The notes beneath the pieces are model-generated. The model had not been told where the DNA came from. It saw only the letters and a list, made by a program, of their open reading frames with translations, and did not search any database. Below, one piece after another: positions 3,860-11,044 of a DNA stretch of 33,548 nucleotides. How positions within the stretch are numbered: the stretch's first letter is position 1; each line of letters opens with the position of its first letter. Source of the DNA: Escherichia coli (GTDB taxonomy: Bacteria; Pseudomonadota; Gammaproteobacteria; Enterobacterales; Enterobacteriaceae); NCBI RefSeq assembly GCF_003334815.1, contig NZ_QOWO01000040.1. The stretch is one strand, 5' to 3'. The position numbers were made by a program, and so were the translations under genes.

Positions 3860-3944
3860 AGAGCCTGCGGCAGGCACAGGCAAAAACATCGTTTTTGGAC
3901 AATCTGATTCAAATGTTAACATTTGACATCGGATTGTCTATCCT
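3860..3944 (-). promoter_or_regulatory. 85-bp element, copy A (perfect inverted copy of 10960-11044); oriT-like, contains 16-bp palindrome caaatgttaacatttg
   Basis: Exact reverse-complement match to 10960-11044. Confidence 0.6.
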
Positions 3945-3976
3945 CCATTGTTCTTTACTGTCTGTAAGATCGGCGC

Positions 3977-4381
3977 TCATTCTTCCGGCGTTCTCCCGAT
4001 ACCAAAAAGACGGAACGCAAAACGGCTTTCGATCCACCATTCAAAAATCTGCTCTGCGCAACCACAAACAGTTAAGGCGATCCATGCAGCAAGAACAACG
4101 TAACCACTGACATCTGCACCCATGAACCAGGCGATAGTTAAACCCATCACTGCGATACCGCCTAAAAACTGCAACAAGAAACGAAATCCCGCAAGAATCC
4201 CCAATGGAATAACAACAACCAGATAAAGGGAAGCAGCCAGAAGGTATCTGACAGGTGTCAGCAGATAAAAGAACCTGGATATTTTCTTTTTGTCAGAATA
4301 AACGGCATCATTTGCAACATCAGTTGAATGATCATTCATGCTGTCCCTGATTCTTTGAAAATCTACGATATTATCCTTCAT
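3977..4381 (-). CDS. Membrane protein immediately downstream of pir (the position bis occupies in R6K-type replicons)
   Basis: 134 aa with about 3 hydrophobic helices; identity with Bis not verifiable here. Confidence 0.5.
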   Translation of the reverse strand: MKDNIVDFQRIRDSMNDHSTDVANDAVYSDKKKISRFFYLLTPVRYLLAASLYLVVVIPLGILAGFRFLLQFLGGIAVMGLTIAWFMGADVSGYVVLAAWIALTVCGCAEQIFEWWIESRFAFRLFGIGRTPEE

Positions 4382-4393
4382 ATTGTTATGACC

Positions 4394-5266
4394 TCAATTT
4401 TCAGGTGGGTACATTTTATCAAACATATTAGTAAACTCTGAGTCTTCCCTGGTATCGCCCTCATAACCAATTGTATAAGAGAACTTTAATTTATAAACTT
4501 TTCTCCCAATTTTTTCTGAAACTACGAAACTTAAGTTCTTTACTTCCGTATGTTTCATTATTTCTTTTACTGATTTATTAAGAACATCTCTTTTAAAAGC
4601 AGGATAATCTGGATACTTATAATCCTTCACCCCCCCCGCCCCTATTGTATAAAGATTCAATTCATCTTTAAGTTCATCTATTGTCATTTCAAAACTATTC
4701 GCGCGAGAATTATTACTATATATTTTACGAATGAGTTGATATAGTGATGCAGCATTAACACTTGTCAGTCGAACAACAGATAATAAAACTTGCGTTGTAT
4801 AACGTTTTTCTTCACCAATAAGTTTACATAAAAATCTTTTCGCTTCTTTTGTAAACTTGATCCCCACTCTACCTTCATTCCTGTAATAAGTAGAAAAAAC
4901 AGTCAGACTCAAATTCATTGAATCAGGTACATTACTTTTAGTGAACTTAAATCCCAAATCACTACTCAGCTCTAATATTTCATCATGTTTCAGCTTAAGA
5001 AGCGTCGTATCTAATATATTAGAGCCATCCCTCAAAGCAAGATAAGCCGCATCAGGCTTAACCTGAACCCATTTAATGTAATCGGCAACTGTCACATAAA
5101 ATATGTGATCATCATCGAATTCATTTTTAGAGTTTATCTGGCACATGGCTAAAAATAAGACTTTTTTAGCAGCCATAGGCAATGTTGACAGCGTTGAATT
5201 CAATTCATTTCGATGTCTCACTTTTGTTAAGCGAGAAAGGGAAGTCTTATTTGTCGTCATTCTCAT
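4394..5266 (-). CDS. pir: Replication initiator, pi-protein-like (Rep_3 family iteron-binding initiator)
   Basis: Strong resemblance to R6K pi as I recall it (KxRHRNELN near N-terminus, TTQ, SLYQLIRK, KYPDxPxFKRDVLNK); iterons directly upstream. Confidence 0.9.
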   Translation of the reverse strand: MRMTTNKTSLSRLTKVRHRNELNSTLSTLPMAAKKVLFLAMCQINSKNEFDDDHIFYVTVADYIKWVQVKPDAAYLALRDGSNILDTTLLKLKHDEILELSSDLGFKFTKSNVPDSMNLSLTVFSTYYRNEGRVGIKFTKEAKRFLCKLIGEEKRYTTQVLLSVVRLTSVNAASLYQLIRKIYSNNSRANSFEMTIDELKDELNLYTIGAGGVKDYKYPDYPAFKRDVLNKSVKEIMKHTEVKNLSFVVSEKIGRKVYKLKFSYTIGYEGDTREDSEFTNMFDKMYPPEN

Positions 5267-5302
5267 TGTTCCAACACTCTTGATAATCAGACTTTAACAC
5301 CA

Positions 5303-5362
5303 AAAACATGATATTACAACACAATCGATATCATGTTTAACCGAGTATCTTCTCATGTTTCA
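5303..5362. promoter_or_regulatory. pir promoter/operator: inverted iteron half-sites (aaacatgatat ... atatcatgttt) plus a degenerate iteron
   Basis: Located 40-100 bp upstream of the pir start; shares the atcatgttt motif with the iterons. Confidence 0.55.
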
Positions 5363-5496
5363 TATCTGTGATTTATCTCACAAAGGTAATCCATGTTCAA
5401 AATCCACACTGGATTCAAGGCAGATTAACAACAGATTCAAAATAGATTCACCAGAAAGAACAAAGAATTAGTATTCTTATGACACATTTTGTGGAT

Positions 5497-5588
5497 ATCA
5501 CCGAGGAAGTTATCATGTTTAACCGAGGAAGTTATCGTGTTTAACCGAGGAAGTTATCATGTTTAACCGAGGAAGTTATCATGTTTAG
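5497..5588. repeat. Four tandem 22-bp iterons (ccgaggaagttatcatgtttaa)
   Basis: Four contiguous head-to-tail copies, one with a single A-to-G change; no spacers, so not CRISPR. Confidence 0.9.
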
Positions 5589-5940
5589 ACAAAAAACATG
5601 CTTAAAATCAATGAATTATAACATCTCTAAGTTTTTAAGTTCTTAAGAAAAACAAGAAAGATAAGGCTTTTAATGCGTGCGAATATTCAGGAACTGTGGA
5701 TAACTCAACAAAACCAGCAACTATGATGGTTCCTTACCATAAATCTGTCCCCCGATGATTATTACCCGCAAGCTAAAACAAACATCATTAATCATTAAAA
5801 CTTATAACTTTCAATAACTTAAAATCATCAAAAAAATATTTGATGCCTTATGAATCTCAATTTTCAAGACCATAAATTTGTCCCTAGTTAACTTTAACTT
5901 ATTGAAATAAATATAATATTCGTGCGTACTGATTCTAATG
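5589..5940. other. AT-rich origin region with a consensus DnaA box (tgtggataa at about 5695-5703)
   Basis: Composition, position next to the iterons, DnaA box reverse complement TTATCCACA. Confidence 0.6.
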
Positions 5941-5949
5941 TCACATCGC

Positions 5950-9390: not shown

Positions 9391-9447
9391 TGGAAATTTC
9401 AATATTGATTCTGAAATTGTCTATTAACATCAATACAAGGGAAATTC

Positions 9448-9798
9448 ATGAAAACGTTAAAACAAGCCGCAATGCAGTTTGCATCTGATCTGCGTAATAA
9501 TCGCTGTTTTAAAGCTGCTTATAATGATGCTCTGTTAGAGCTTGATCGGGAAGATTTAAACGCCATTGTACAATGCACATTTCTTTTTGAGCCAAAACGA
9601 ACATTAGCCGAACTTGATAAATTAATTAAAAAGATAGAAGTAGAAGAAGATTATGAGTTTTGTGTATCCCTTGATAAAGGTAAAGGATTACACGAAGTCA
9701 GAACATTTAAAAGTGAGCGTGAGGCGTTGGATGCTTATCGCATTTTGACTCTTTACGGATACACAGTAACTATAGAAAAGAAGGAGGGTAATGACTGA
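9448..9798 (+). CDS. Hypothetical protein (116 aa)
   Basis: ORF track; RBS aaggga. Confidence 0.5.
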   Translation: MKTLKQAAMQFASDLRNNRCFKAAYNDALLELDREDLNAIVQCTFLFEPKRTLAELDKLIKKIEVEEDYEFCVSLDKGKGLHEVRTFKSEREALDAYRILTLYGYTVTIEKKEGND

Positions 9799-9873
9799 CT
9801 ATTCAAGGTGTGATCAGGTTGTTCCACCAACCTGATCACGTTATCGACAATCAAAACTGAATGAGGTTTTTAA

Positions 9874-10011
9874 ATGTCAACTCGGCAGATCGTACAGCTT
9901 GCTGATTCCCTTGTCAAAGGCTGGGAAACCAGAATTCCGGCAATGAAATTTAGTGAATGGGATCAATTCCGGTGGTGGTTAAACTACTTGCAAGGGTATG
10001 AAATGTTTTAA
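9874..10011 (+). CDS. Small hypothetical ORF (45 aa)
   Basis: ATG to stop immediately before a terminator; below track cutoff. Confidence 0.3.
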   Translation: MSTRQIVQLADSLVKGWETRIPAMKFSEWDQFRWWLNYLQGYEMF

Positions 10012-10045
10012 ATAAAAAAAGGGGCTTTCTGCCCCTTTGTATTTT
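10012..10045. terminator. Intrinsic terminator (aaaggggc tttct gcccctttg between A-run and T-run)
   Basis: Read directly. Confidence 0.6.
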
Positions 10046-10074
10046 TTGACAAAAATGCCATGCGTAACTATAAT
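10046..10074 (+). promoter_or_regulatory. Consensus sigma-70 promoter (TTGACA, 17-bp spacer, TATAAT) for the hicAB pair
   Basis: ttgaca at 10046-10051 and tataat at 10069-10074; ATG about 29 nt downstream. Confidence 0.65.
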
Positions 10075-10102
10075 TAGTTGCATATCTATAGGGGATGGAT
10101 TT

Positions 10103-10351
10103 ATGGGGAAAACAGATAAGCTACTGGCAAAGTTTTTAAACAGTAAAAAAACGTTTGAATGGGATGAACTGGTCGTTTTGTTTTCCTCTTTGGGATATGT
10201 CAAAAAGGAAATGCAGGGGTCAAGAGTGCGGTTTTTCAATGCTGAAATCAATCACACCATATTAATGCATCGTCCACATCCGGAAAGTTATATCAAAGGT
10301 GGTACGCTGAAAGCAATTAAACAGAATCTGAAAGAGGCTGGATTATTATGA
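10103..10351 (+). CDS. hicA: HicA-family toxin (mRNA interferase type)
   Basis: 82 aa; C-terminal ...HPESYIKGGTLKAIKQNLKEAGLL resembles the HicA signature; 4-nt overlap with downstream antitoxin. Confidence 0.6.
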   Translation: MGKTDKLLAKFLNSKKTFEWDELVVLFSSLGYVKKEMQGSRVRFFNAEINHTILMHRPHPESYIKGGTLKAIKQNLKEAGLL

Positions 10352-10695
10352 AACATTTAAAATATAAAGGATATTTAGGCACGGTTGAACCCGATTTTGA
10401 AAATAATGTTCTGTATGGAAAACTGGCGTTTATTCGGGACCTGGTAACTTATGAGGCTTCTACATTAGCTGAACTGGAACAGGAGTTTAAAACATCGGTT
10501 GATCTGTATTTACAGTCTTGTGTGGAGGATGGAAAGGAACCTGATATCCCGTTTAAAGGCGTGTTTAACGTCAGGCTTGATCCAGAACTGCATCGTCGGG
10601 TAGCAGAAATGGCGATGGAAGAAGATTTATCGTTGAATGCCTTTGTTAATAAGGCTCTGGAAAAAGAAGTCAGCAATCATCGCGCAGGGGCTTAA
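10348..10695 (+). CDS. hicB: HicB-family antitoxin (N-terminal HicB fold, C-terminal RHH-like)
   Basis: YKGYLGTVEPD ... Q/EFKTSVDLYLQSC ... ELHRRVA pattern typical of HicB-like antitoxins. Confidence 0.6.
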   Translation: MKHLKYKGYLGTVEPDFENNVLYGKLAFIRDLVTYEASTLAELEQEFKTSVDLYLQSCVEDGKEPDIPFKGVFNVRLDPELHRRVAEMAMEEDLSLNAFVNKALEKEVSNHRAGA

Positions 10696-10959
10696 TTGCC
10701 CTTGTTTTTTTATGCCCTGTAAGGGCATGGGAGGCGCTTTGCGCCGGAAGCCCCGCAGCGCAGCGAGGACTTAAAAAGCGTTACGGCTTCAGCCGTAACA
10801 ATTCCCAGCCCTGCCAGGCCTGTTTTTCCTTTCACAAATCTTTCAGCTATACGTTTGCCTGATGGTCGAAGACGAAAGAATCTTTCAGCAACGAAATCTG
10901 GACATATGCAGCGACGATTTTATAGCCAGGCACAGTGCCACATATGGTACAATCAATGC

Positions 10960-11044
10960 AGGATAGACAATCCGATGTCAAATGTTAACATTTGAATCAG
11001 ATTGTCCAAAAACGATGTTTTTGCCTGTGCCTGCCGCAGGCTCT
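10960..11044 (+). promoter_or_regulatory. 85-bp element, copy B; oriT-like, immediately upstream of the taxA-relaxase operon
   Basis: Perfect inverted copy of 3860-3944; 13 bp from the taxA start. Confidence 0.6.

What the first reader, a model, noticed from the sequence alone, without database searches (positions are those of the whole stretch)
3860..11044. Perfect 85-bp inverted repeats (oriT-like) bracketing the replicon core
3860-3944 and 10960-11044 are exact reverse complements and contain the 16-bp perfect palindrome caaatgttaacatttg. Copy B sits 13 bp upstream of taxA and the relaxase; copy A sits 18 bp upstream of a divergent 175-aa gene on the other strand. Two oriT copies in inverted orientation are, as I recall, a hallmark of R6K. 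Exact 85-bp inverted repeats 7 kb apart would also allow inversion of the pir, origin and leading-region segment by homologous recombination.
Basis: partly seen in the sequence, partly recalled or inferred. Interest (0 to 1): 0.7.

Follow-up and report, generated by a model that had tools for sequence, protein, structure and literature searches.

The report
Paired IncX plasmid transfer origins
The two inverted repeats are the paired origins of conjugative transfer (oriT) that flank the replication region of IncX plasmids such as R6K, seen here in an IncX4 plasmid, so the feature is real but ordinary for this plasmid family.

Summary
The arms 3860-3950 and 10954-11044 are a 91-nt inverted repeat with one mismatch (3945 C against 10959). 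The 85-nt "perfect" stretch is that repeat cut short by the mismatch.

The window is an IncX4 backbone. IncX1, X2 (R6K-type), X3 and X4-like plasmids all carry such a repeat pair: one copy beside taxA/taxC, the other beside a ddp3-position gene next to the replication gene. The literature already calls two oriTs in long inverted repeats an IncX hallmark.

Each arm has a hairpin followed 7 nt later by CTATCCTG|CAT, an IncP-type nick motif. This motif is the only sequence shared across the IncX subgroups. In the published IncX3-X4 hybrid pCQ02-121, the X3/X4 crossover lies inside this core. Small plasmids without a relaxase carry the bare 91-bp element.

The inversion idea is not supported: 0 records show the inverted junction, against 443 with the native one.

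Additional findings:
- Copy A has a substitution at the predicted nick position (G to C) seen in no other copy.
- The hairpin tip is hypervariable, and it co-varies with the TaxA N-terminus.
- Both copies on a plasmid always carry matching hairpin variants.

Verdict: already known, low interest.

The parts
3860..3950 (+). Long inverted repeat, copy A (the oriT next to the replication gene). The plus strand is the strand predicted to be nicked and transferred.
   Evidence: same position in relatives
10954..11044 (-). Long inverted repeat, copy B (the oriT next to taxA-taxC). The minus strand is the strand predicted to be nicked and transferred.
   Evidence: the bare 91-bp element with the same boundaries sits in the relaxase-less plasmid L003
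10956..10966 (-). Nick core CTATCCTG|CAT of copy B. The predicted nick is between 10959 (G) and 10958 (C) on the minus strand.
   Evidence: conserved in IncX1/X2/X3/X4 repeats; the X3/X4 crossover in pCQ02-121 falls inside this core
3938..3948 (+). Nick core of copy A, here CTATCCTCCAT. Position 3945 is C where every other copy examined has G.
   Evidence: 0 of 390 full-length PLSDB matches are identical; it is the only such instance among about 146 copies in the held loci
3898..3938 (+). Copy A hairpin: invariant base GACAATC/GATTGTC, variable tip that includes the 16-bp palindrome 3910-3925. It ends 7 nt before the predicted nick.
   Evidence: fold, z -6.5; hairpin kept in about 25 variants, 6 pairs with compensatory changes
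10966..11006 (-). Copy B hairpin, same cassette as copy A (palindrome at 10979-10994).
10964..10991 (+). Promoter-like site TAGACA-16-TAACAT, with TG before the second hexamer, pointing outward to taxA. Its mirror image 3940-3913 (minus strand) points to the 175-aa gene. Consensus match only.
11058..11561 (+). taxA (ddp1), the relaxosome accessory protein. Its N-terminal ~62 aa co-vary with the hairpin cassette.
   Evidence: NCBIfam DDP1, 228 bits; weak Arc/NikA-like ribbon-helix-helix hits; covariation
11565..12794 (+). taxC, a MobP1-family relaxase.
   Evidence: NCBIfam MobP1, 404 bits; annotation
3315..3842 (-). 175-aa DUF2726 protein in the position ddp3 holds in IncX1-3. It is a distant Ddp3 relative.
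   Evidence: Pfam DUF2726, 2.8e-13; NCBIfam DDP3, E 1.4e-6 but 28.6 bits, below the cutoff of 140; no BLASTP match to IncX2 Ddp3
3977..5266 (-). 134-aa gene (3977-4381) and replication initiator gene (4394-5266) inside the bracketed segment.
5478..5609 (.). 22-bp iterons of the replication origin, plus a lone copy near 5318.
6630..10695 (+). Leading-region-like genes (J-domain protein, small ORFs, hicAB), all on the plus strand and so transcribed toward copy B.

Best explanation
The two arms are the long inverted repeats typical of IncX plasmids, and each holds an origin of conjugative transfer (oriT).

Proposed mechanism (inferred):
- On the strand that reads from the flanking gene inward, each arm folds into three hairpins.
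- The largest hairpin has an invariant base (GACAATC/GATTGTC) and a variable tip. It ends 7 nt before TATCCTG|CAT.
- The MobP-family relaxase TaxC is predicted to cut at that position.
- TaxA is encoded directly beside copy B. It probably reads the variable hairpin with its N-terminal ribbon-helix-helix part and recruits TaxC with its C-terminal part.
- The two nick sites lie on opposite strands and both point inward. Transfer from copy B would send the hicAB/J-domain leading region into the recipient first. Transfer from copy A would send the replication gene first.
- The outer half of each arm also carries an outward promoter-like site. This would put taxA-taxC and the ddp3-position gene under the same control.

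In this particular plasmid copy A has C instead of G at the base 5' of the predicted nick, so copy B is probably the main or only active origin here.

Shown here: the anatomy, the conservation, the covariation and a natural recombinant junction.
Inferred: nicking, TaxA binding and promoter use.
For: 1. The window is an IncX4 backbone, and the repeat pair is conserved in IncX4 relatives.
2. The same layout (ddp3-position gene, repeat, replication region, leading genes, repeat, taxA-taxC) is found in five further plasmids. These are IncX1 pOLA52, IncX2 pNGX2-QnrS1 (which carries R6K-type iterons), an IncX3 plasmid, and the X4-like plasmids KV7 and CUVET. pCROD2 has both copies beside the same flanking genes.
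3. The literature states that two oriTs in long inverted repeats characterise conjugative IncX plasmids (PMC3402527). It cites Avila et al. 1996 for two functional R6K oriTs.
4. The only sequence shared between the X1-3 and X4 repeats is CTATCCTGCAT at the inner end. From my own knowledge, this matches the IncP/RP4 nick consensus YATCCTG|Y.
5. The strand folds at -24.2 kcal/mol (z -6.5), with the hairpin ending 7 nt before the motif.
6. About 25 hairpin variants all keep the fold, and 6 pairs show compensatory changes.
7. In the IncX3-X4 hybrid pCQ02-121 the sequence is pure X3 up to ...GCCCTATCCTG and then switches to the inner flank of X4 copy B (CATTGATTGTACC...). The crossover is therefore inside the 11-nt core. 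Later papers cite Sun et al. 2016 for fusion at 'the nic site of oriT'.
8. Relaxase-less small plasmids carry the element alone, one of them with exactly the 91-bp boundaries.
9. The TaxA N-terminus tracks the cassette one-to-one over 7 types. In the 5 plasmids compared, the C-terminus tracks the TaxC type instead.
10. In all 12 replicons with two copies, both copies share the same cassette (one pair differs by a single-base indel) and the nick sites face inward. In ESBL3153 only the nick-proximal 30 nt of the two copies could be compared; they are identical, and its Rep and J-domain proteins match the reference IncX4. Such matching implies selection to keep copy A readable by TaxA.
Against: - No experiment on IncX4 oriT was found. 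Nicking, mobilisation and TaxA binding are all inferred.
- The short consensus YATCCTGY alone is not enriched in the window (5 matches against 3.4 expected). The nick assignment therefore rests on context.
- Covariation in a palindrome fits a dimeric protein site on duplex DNA as well as it fits a hairpin.
- The Pfam ribbon-helix-helix hits for TaxA are weak (E 0.025 to 3).
- The promoter call is a 9-of-12 consensus match.
- oriTfinder-based IncX4 papers either find no oriT or place it at a hairpin after taxC.
- Copy A in this window lacks the conserved G.
Confidence: 0.85

Rival explanations
1. Only copy B works as a transfer origin. Copy A is kept mainly as a duplicated TaxA-controlled promoter/operator for the ddp3-position gene, or as part of a secondary replication origin, as proposed for the R6K alpha/beta origins and the 'DNA distortion' proteins.
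For: - Outward promoter-like sites are mirrored in both arms.
- In IncX1/X3 the repeat runs into the first codons of ddp1 and ddp3.
- The genes are named DNA distortion polypeptides.
- Copy A here has lost the conserved G at the predicted nick.
- The leading-region genes are oriented for entry from copy B.
Against: - In all other replicons copy A keeps the full nick core and the matching cassette.
- The whole 91-bp unit, outer half included, is what small relaxase-less plasmids carry with no gene downstream.
- Both oriTs of R6K are reported functional (Avila 1996, cited).
Confidence: 0.3
2. The repeats serve as substrates for homologous or relaxase-mediated recombination that flips the 7-kb replication and leading segment, giving two plasmid isomers.
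For: - 91 nt of near identity is enough for RecA recombination in principle.
- The two copies stay homogenised across lineages, so they do exchange sequence.
Against: - The inverted junction is found in 0 PLSDB records, against 443 with the native junction.
- It is found in 0 of 503 matching complete E. coli genomes.
- All two-copy replicons examined have the same gene order.
- No recombinase gene lies in the segment.
Confidence: 0.05
3. The real oriT lies elsewhere: either at the hairpin just after taxC (12807-12840) that oriTfinder reported for an IncX4 plasmid, or in the hairpin-rich stretch 10700-10950.
For: - PMC6287198 reports an oriT-like region with the inverted repeat GCAGGTGAGCAAAG, which maps to 12807-12840.
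- Several GC-rich hairpins lie in 10684-10800.
Against: - The 12807-12840 hairpin starts 13 nt after the taxC stop codon, so it looks like a terminator.
- Neither region is carried by the small relaxase-less plasmids.
- Neither contains the core that is conserved across IncX subgroups.
- The pCQ02-121 junction lies in the repeat core.
Confidence: 0.03
4. The repeats are terminal inverted repeats of a transposable element that carries the replicon core.
For: Two identical inverted ends bracket a 7-kb block.
Against: - There is no transposase or recombinase gene inside.
- There is no target-site duplication: the outer flanks are TTTTAAA and GTGGGGG.
- The block is always in the same backbone position.
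Confidence: 0.01

Closest known systems
R6K (IncX2) oriT-alpha and oriT-beta in the long inverted repeats
   Same: - Two inverted copies flank the replication region.
- One copy is beside taxA(ddp1)-taxC(ddp2); the other is beside the ddp3-position gene next to the 134-aa gene and the replication gene.
- The nick core CTATCCTGCAT sits at the inner end.
   Different: - The arms are 91 nt instead of about 110.
- Nothing outside the 11-nt core can be aligned.
- The repeat stops before the ribosome-binding sites instead of running into the first codons.
- The gene next to copy A is a 175-aa DUF2726 protein only distantly related to Ddp3.
- There is no functional test for IncX4.
IncX1 (pOLA52) and IncX3 long inverted repeats
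   Same: Same gene order and the same inward-facing nick cores.
   Different: - Their hairpin is GGCAAACG...CGTTTGCC.
- TaxA is only about 27% identical.
IncP (RP4) oriT with TraJ and TraI
   Same: - Nick core ...CTATCCTG|C.
- An inverted repeat ends a few nt 5' of the nick.
- A MOBP relaxase operon starts beside oriT and is transcribed away from it.
- There is a small accessory DNA-binding protein.
The RP4 side rests on my own knowledge; the window side.
   Different: - RP4 has a single oriT.
- TaxA is not a detectable TraJ homologue.
- The relaxase belongs to the MobP1/IncX branch.
Relaxase-less 'oriT-only' small plasmids (Ares-Arroyo et al., PMC10123127)
   Same: Small Col-type and RepL plasmids carry the IncX4-type element and no relaxase.
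   Different: - These are relatives of the element, not the element in the window.
- Many carry two or three different hairpin cassettes.

Membership tests
IncX paired oriT in long inverted repeats (R6K type) | Two copies in inverted orientation flanking the replication region | tested here: met
   the same in IncX1, X2, X3 and X4-like plasmids
IncX paired oriT in long inverted repeats (R6K type) | One copy directly upstream of taxA(ddp1)-taxC(ddp2), the other directly upstream of ddp3 beside the replication gene | tested here: met
   - TaxA matches NCBIfam DDP1 (228 bits) and TaxC matches MobP1 (404 bits).
- The 175-aa gene occupies the ddp3 position, but its DDP3 match is sub-threshold (28.6 bits, cutoff 140).

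IncX paired oriT in long inverted repeats (R6K type) | Sequence similarity to R6K-type oriT | tested here: inconclusive
   Only the 11-nt core CTATCCTGCAT is shared with the IncX1/X2/X3 repeats. The R6K record itself is not in the collections, so an IncX2 plasmid with R6K-type iterons was used instead.
IncX paired oriT in long inverted repeats (R6K type) | Both copies are nicked and support mobilisation | not testable with these tools
   Indirect evidence only: the hybrid junction in the copy B core, orphan copies on small plasmids, and matched cassettes in both copies.
MOBP / IncP-type oriT | Nick consensus YATCCTG|Y | tested here: met
   Copy B has TATCCTGC at 10958-10965, minus strand. Copy A does not meet it in this window (TATCCTCC).
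MOBP / IncP-type oriT | Inverted repeat ending a few nt 5' of the nick on the nicked strand | tested here: met
   The hairpin ends 7 nt before the predicted nick.
MOBP / IncP-type oriT | Adjacent MOBP relaxase gene | tested here: met
   NCBIfam MobP1, 404 bits; MOB-suite types relatives as MOBP.
Invertible DNA segment | Both orientations occur in nature | tested here: not met
   0 records with the inverted junction against 443 with the native one; 0 of 503 matching E. coli genomes. Minority isomers within a culture were not testable.
Transposon terminal inverted repeats | Target-site duplication and a transposase gene inside | tested here: not met
   The flanks differ, and no transposase is among the ORFs or annotations.

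The most novel reading that the evidence does not exclude
The tip of the oriT hairpin may be an exchangeable specificity cassette read by the N-terminal domain of TaxA.

- At least 7 cassette/TaxA-N types exist in IncX4-like plasmids. The TaxA C-terminal domain stays tied to the TaxC type.
- After a cassette swap, both inverted copies are brought back into register. This would mean copy A is under selection to be read by TaxA.
- Hundreds of small plasmids typed as non-mobilisable carry one to three different cassettes. They would therefore be able to ride on several IncX4-like helper plasmids.
- This window would then be a natural single-origin mutant, because copy A has lost the G at the nick.
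Probability: 0.45. Interest if true: 0.5.

Novelty: already known. Interest (0 to 1): 0.25.

Why it matters
[quoted passage not shown] Several IncX4 papers report that oriTfinder finds no oriT in them, or place it at a hairpin after taxC.

Locating the paired origins at the inverted repeats gives a concrete site for transfer assays. It also explains why many small plasmids typed as non-mobilisable may still move with IncX4 helpers. The arrangement itself is textbook for IncX plasmids, so a specialist would not be surprised by it.

Tried and rejected
- **Records not held.** The R6K record LT827129, pEBG1 (KF738053) and JQ269335 are not in the collections under those accessions. I reached an IncX2 plasmid through the R6K iteron sequence instead.
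- **Literature.** A search for the mapped R6K nick site found nothing. A search linking small Col plasmids to IncX4 oriT was uninformative because 'orit' matched inside other words.
- **Motif alone.** YATCCTGY is not enriched in the window, so I did not rely on it by itself.
- **Equal length.** NZ_CP024861.1 is also 33548 bp, but it is a different IncX4 plasmid.
- **Many matches in one record.** NZ_CP139800.1 turned out to be a dimer-like linear assembly, not a hybrid.
- **Four-junction query.** A combined chimeric query for X3/X4 recombinants could not discriminate, because pieces were merged. It did reveal that pCQ02-121 is held, and I then read it directly.
- **Direct repeat fold.** Folding the 415-bp direct repeat on each strand gave equal scores, so it says nothing about single-strand promoters.
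- **Ddp3 by BLASTP.** BLASTP found no Ddp3 similarity for the 175-aa protein. Only the NCBIfam profile gave a weak match.

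
Full report
**1. The observation**

The window holds a 91-nt inverted repeat, with arms at 3860-3950 and 10954-11044, 7003 nt apart.

The 16-bp palindrome is at 3910-3925 and 10979-10994. Copy B ends 13 nt before the taxA start codon. Copy A begins 17 nt beyond the start codon of a 175-aa gene on the minus strand. Every other inverted repeat in the window is 38 nt or shorter, so chance is excluded.

**2. What the window is**

The region is 98% identical to IncX4 plasmids, many of which carry mcr-1. Annotated relatives show this gene order:
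- DUF2726 gene
- repeat copy A
- 134-aa gene
- replication initiator
- iterons
- J-domain gene and small ORFs
- hicAB
- repeat copy B
- taxA and taxC

These relatives carry the same repeat pair (94 nt, 99%).

**3. The arrangement across IncX plasmids**

I found the same arrangement in four further subgroups or relatives:

| Plasmid | Subgroup | Repeat |
|---|---|---|
| pOLA52 | IncX1 | 110 nt, 95% |
| pCREC-591_4 | IncX3 | 110 nt, 98% |
| pNGX2-QnrS1 | IncX2, iterons identical to the R6K origin sequence I supplied | about 110 nt |
| KV7 | X4-like | 92 nt, 100% |

The literature states that two oriTs within long inverted repeats, one near taxC and one near the replication gene with ddp3 beside it, are a characteristic of conjugative IncX plasmids (PMC3402527; PMC3332091).

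**4. Anatomy of each arm**

Read from the flanking gene inward, each arm folds as single-stranded DNA into three hairpins (-24.2 kcal/mol, z -6.5). The largest hairpin ends 7 nt before TATCCTG|CAT.

The core CTATCCTGCAT is the only sequence shared between the IncX4 repeat and the IncX1/X2/X3 repeats. From my own knowledge it matches the IncP/RP4 nick consensus YATCCTG|Y. The short consensus alone is not enriched in the window, so the nick assignment depends on context.

The adjacent genes are a MobP1-family relaxase (404 bits) and a DDP1/TaxA equivalog (228 bits).

**5. Independent support for the nick position**

- *A natural recombinant.* pCQ02-121, the IncX3-X4 hybrid of Sun et al. 2016, is pure IncX3 repeat up to ...GCCCTATCCTG. 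It then continues as the inner flank of IncX4 copy B (CATTGATTGTACCATATG...). The crossover therefore lies inside the 11-nt core. Eleven shared bases are probably too few for ordinary homologous recombination (my own knowledge). Later papers quote the fusion as occurring at 'the nic site of oriT'.
- *Orphan copies.* Small plasmids with no relaxase carry the element. A 4237-bp RepL plasmid has exactly the 91-bp unit with the same boundaries. A 1565-bp Col(MG828) plasmid has it at 95.6% identity. The 2.1-kb Col(BS512) plasmids keep the hairpin base and the nick core. None of them carries the 10700-10950 region or the hairpin after taxC.

**6. The hairpin is a variable cassette**

I scanned metagenome contigs for the invariant flanks GGACAATC...GATTGTCTATCCTG and obtained 95 loci. 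The sequence between the flanks comes in about 25 variants. All of them still form the hairpin in the same register. An alignment fold shows 6 pairs with compensatory changes above 8 invariant base pairs.

A dyad-symmetric protein site on duplex DNA would give the same covariation pattern, so the hairpin reading is not proven.

**7. TaxA co-varies with the cassette**

TaxC is 94-100% identical among the five X4-like plasmids compared, and the DUF2726 protein is 94-98% identical among six. TaxA, by contrast, is a mosaic.
- Its N-terminal ~62 aa follow the cassette type one-to-one over 7 types in about 25 loci.
- Its C-terminal part follows the TaxC type in the five plasmids compared.
- The cassette TACTGAAAATTGCATGC... 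occurs with one N-terminal type but two different C-terminal types.
- Pfam gives only weak Arc/NikA-like ribbon-helix-helix hits, at residues 2-32 and 54-93.

I infer that TaxA-N reads the cassette and TaxA-C contacts the relaxase.

**8. The two copies stay matched**

In all 12 replicons where both copies are visible, the nick cores face inward and both copies carry the same cassette. One pair differs by a single-base indel.

In ESBL3153 only the nick-proximal 30 nt of the two copies could be compared. They are identical, and copy A carries a different cassette from the reference IncX4, while the Rep and J-domain proteins are those of the reference. A swap of the whole block is therefore unlikely. 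Short-patch replacement followed by copy-to-copy conversion fits better.

This matching argues that copy A is kept readable by TaxA, whether as an origin, as an operator, or both.

**9. Inversion**

I built the junction that an inversion would create. No PLSDB record covers 80% or more of it, while 443 records cover the native junction. None of 503 matching complete E. coli genomes has it.

Assemblies report the majority form, so rare isomers within a culture remain untested. As a feature of these plasmids, though, inversion is not supported.

**10. The mismatch**

The C at 3945 lies at the base 5' of the predicted nick in copy A. No PLSDB record shares it (0 of 390 full-length matches). It is the only such case among about 146 copies in the loci I hold. 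In the metagenome loci the scan pattern itself required G in at least one copy per locus.

The window differs from relatives by about 1.5-2% overall, so a single change in 91 nt is not statistically odd. By analogy with IncP nick sites (my own knowledge), it probably weakens or abolishes nicking at copy A. A sequencing error cannot be excluded.

**11. The gene beside copy A**

The 175-aa protein is a DUF2726 protein. BLASTP finds no match to IncX2 Ddp3, but it gives a weak, sub-threshold match to the NCBIfam DDP3 profile. It is best described as a distant Ddp3 relative in the same position.

Promoter-like sites pointing outward are mirrored in both arms. They are consensus matches only.

**12. 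Verdict**

The finding is real and is correctly read as a paired oriT of the R6K/IncX kind. That is already known biology, so I score novelty as already known and interest as low.

Beyond the assigned finding, three further observations stand out. The exact location matters practically, because oriTfinder-based IncX4 papers miss it or misplace it. The cassette/TaxA covariation is a specific, testable observation that I did not find described. So is the presence of several different cassettes on small relaxase-less plasmids.

Noticed in passing
window 3945 (copy A) against 10959 (copy B): The single mismatch between the arms falls on the base 5' of the predicted nick (G to C). No PLSDB relative and no other copy in the loci held has it. 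It may disable copy A, or it may be a base-calling error.
   Followed up: yes
L003 (397-, 3353+), L004 599-688, L005 1937-2024; metagenome loci L015-L109: Small plasmids of 1.5-4.2 kb with no relaxase, typed 'non-mobilizable', carry the IncX4-type oriT element. Many hold two or three different hairpin cassettes, some in inverted orientation.
   Followed up: partly
window 3905-3931 / 10973-10999 and TaxA residues 1-62 (11058-11243): The hairpin tip is hypervariable (about 25 variants) between invariant flanks, and it co-varies one-to-one with the TaxA N-terminal domain over 7 types. In the 5 plasmids compared, the TaxA C-terminal domain follows the TaxC type instead.
   Followed up: yes
L111 (pCQ02-121) 43840-43945: In the IncX3-X4 hybrid plasmid the switch from X3 to X4 sequence lies inside CTATCCTG|CAT of the oriT beside the relaxase operon. 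This looks like a natural relaxase-type recombination junction.
   Followed up: yes
window 12807-12840: A hairpin (GCAGGTGAACAAAG / GCAGGTGAGCAAAG) starts 13 nt after the taxC stop codon. It is the 'oriT-like region' that oriTfinder reported for IncX4 pEC11b, and it looks like the taxC terminator.
   Followed up: partly
window 6210-~6625 and 8290-~8705: An exact direct repeat of about 415 bp, 2080 bp apart, lies inside the bracketed segment. Each copy ends just before a gene start (6630 and 8709), and the repeat is present in relatives too. Function unknown; possibly a duplicated upstream control region.
   Followed up: partly
window 40-77 and 33472-33509: 38-bp Tn3-family inverted repeats point out of the window and are flanked by a 5-bp duplication GTAAT (78-82 and 33467-33471). 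Relatives have the site empty. If the window is a closed circle, the element is a 154-bp miniature with no transposase.
   Followed up: partly
window 207-299 (-): Rfam match to the AgrB antisense RNA (55.6 bits). It fits the DinQ-like type I toxin (dqlB) locus annotated in relatives.
   Followed up: no
window 1230-1376, 2028-2074, 33261-33307: Arrays of about 25-nt repeats containing GTGACATACA lie on both sides of the ParA/MipZ-like gene (1385-2032). They are probably partition-site repeats.
   Followed up: no
window 5478-5609 compared with L001 3479-3632: The window has one fewer 22-bp iteron than the reference IncX4, and its iterons mostly read GTTATC where the reference mostly has GCTCTC.
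   Followed up: no
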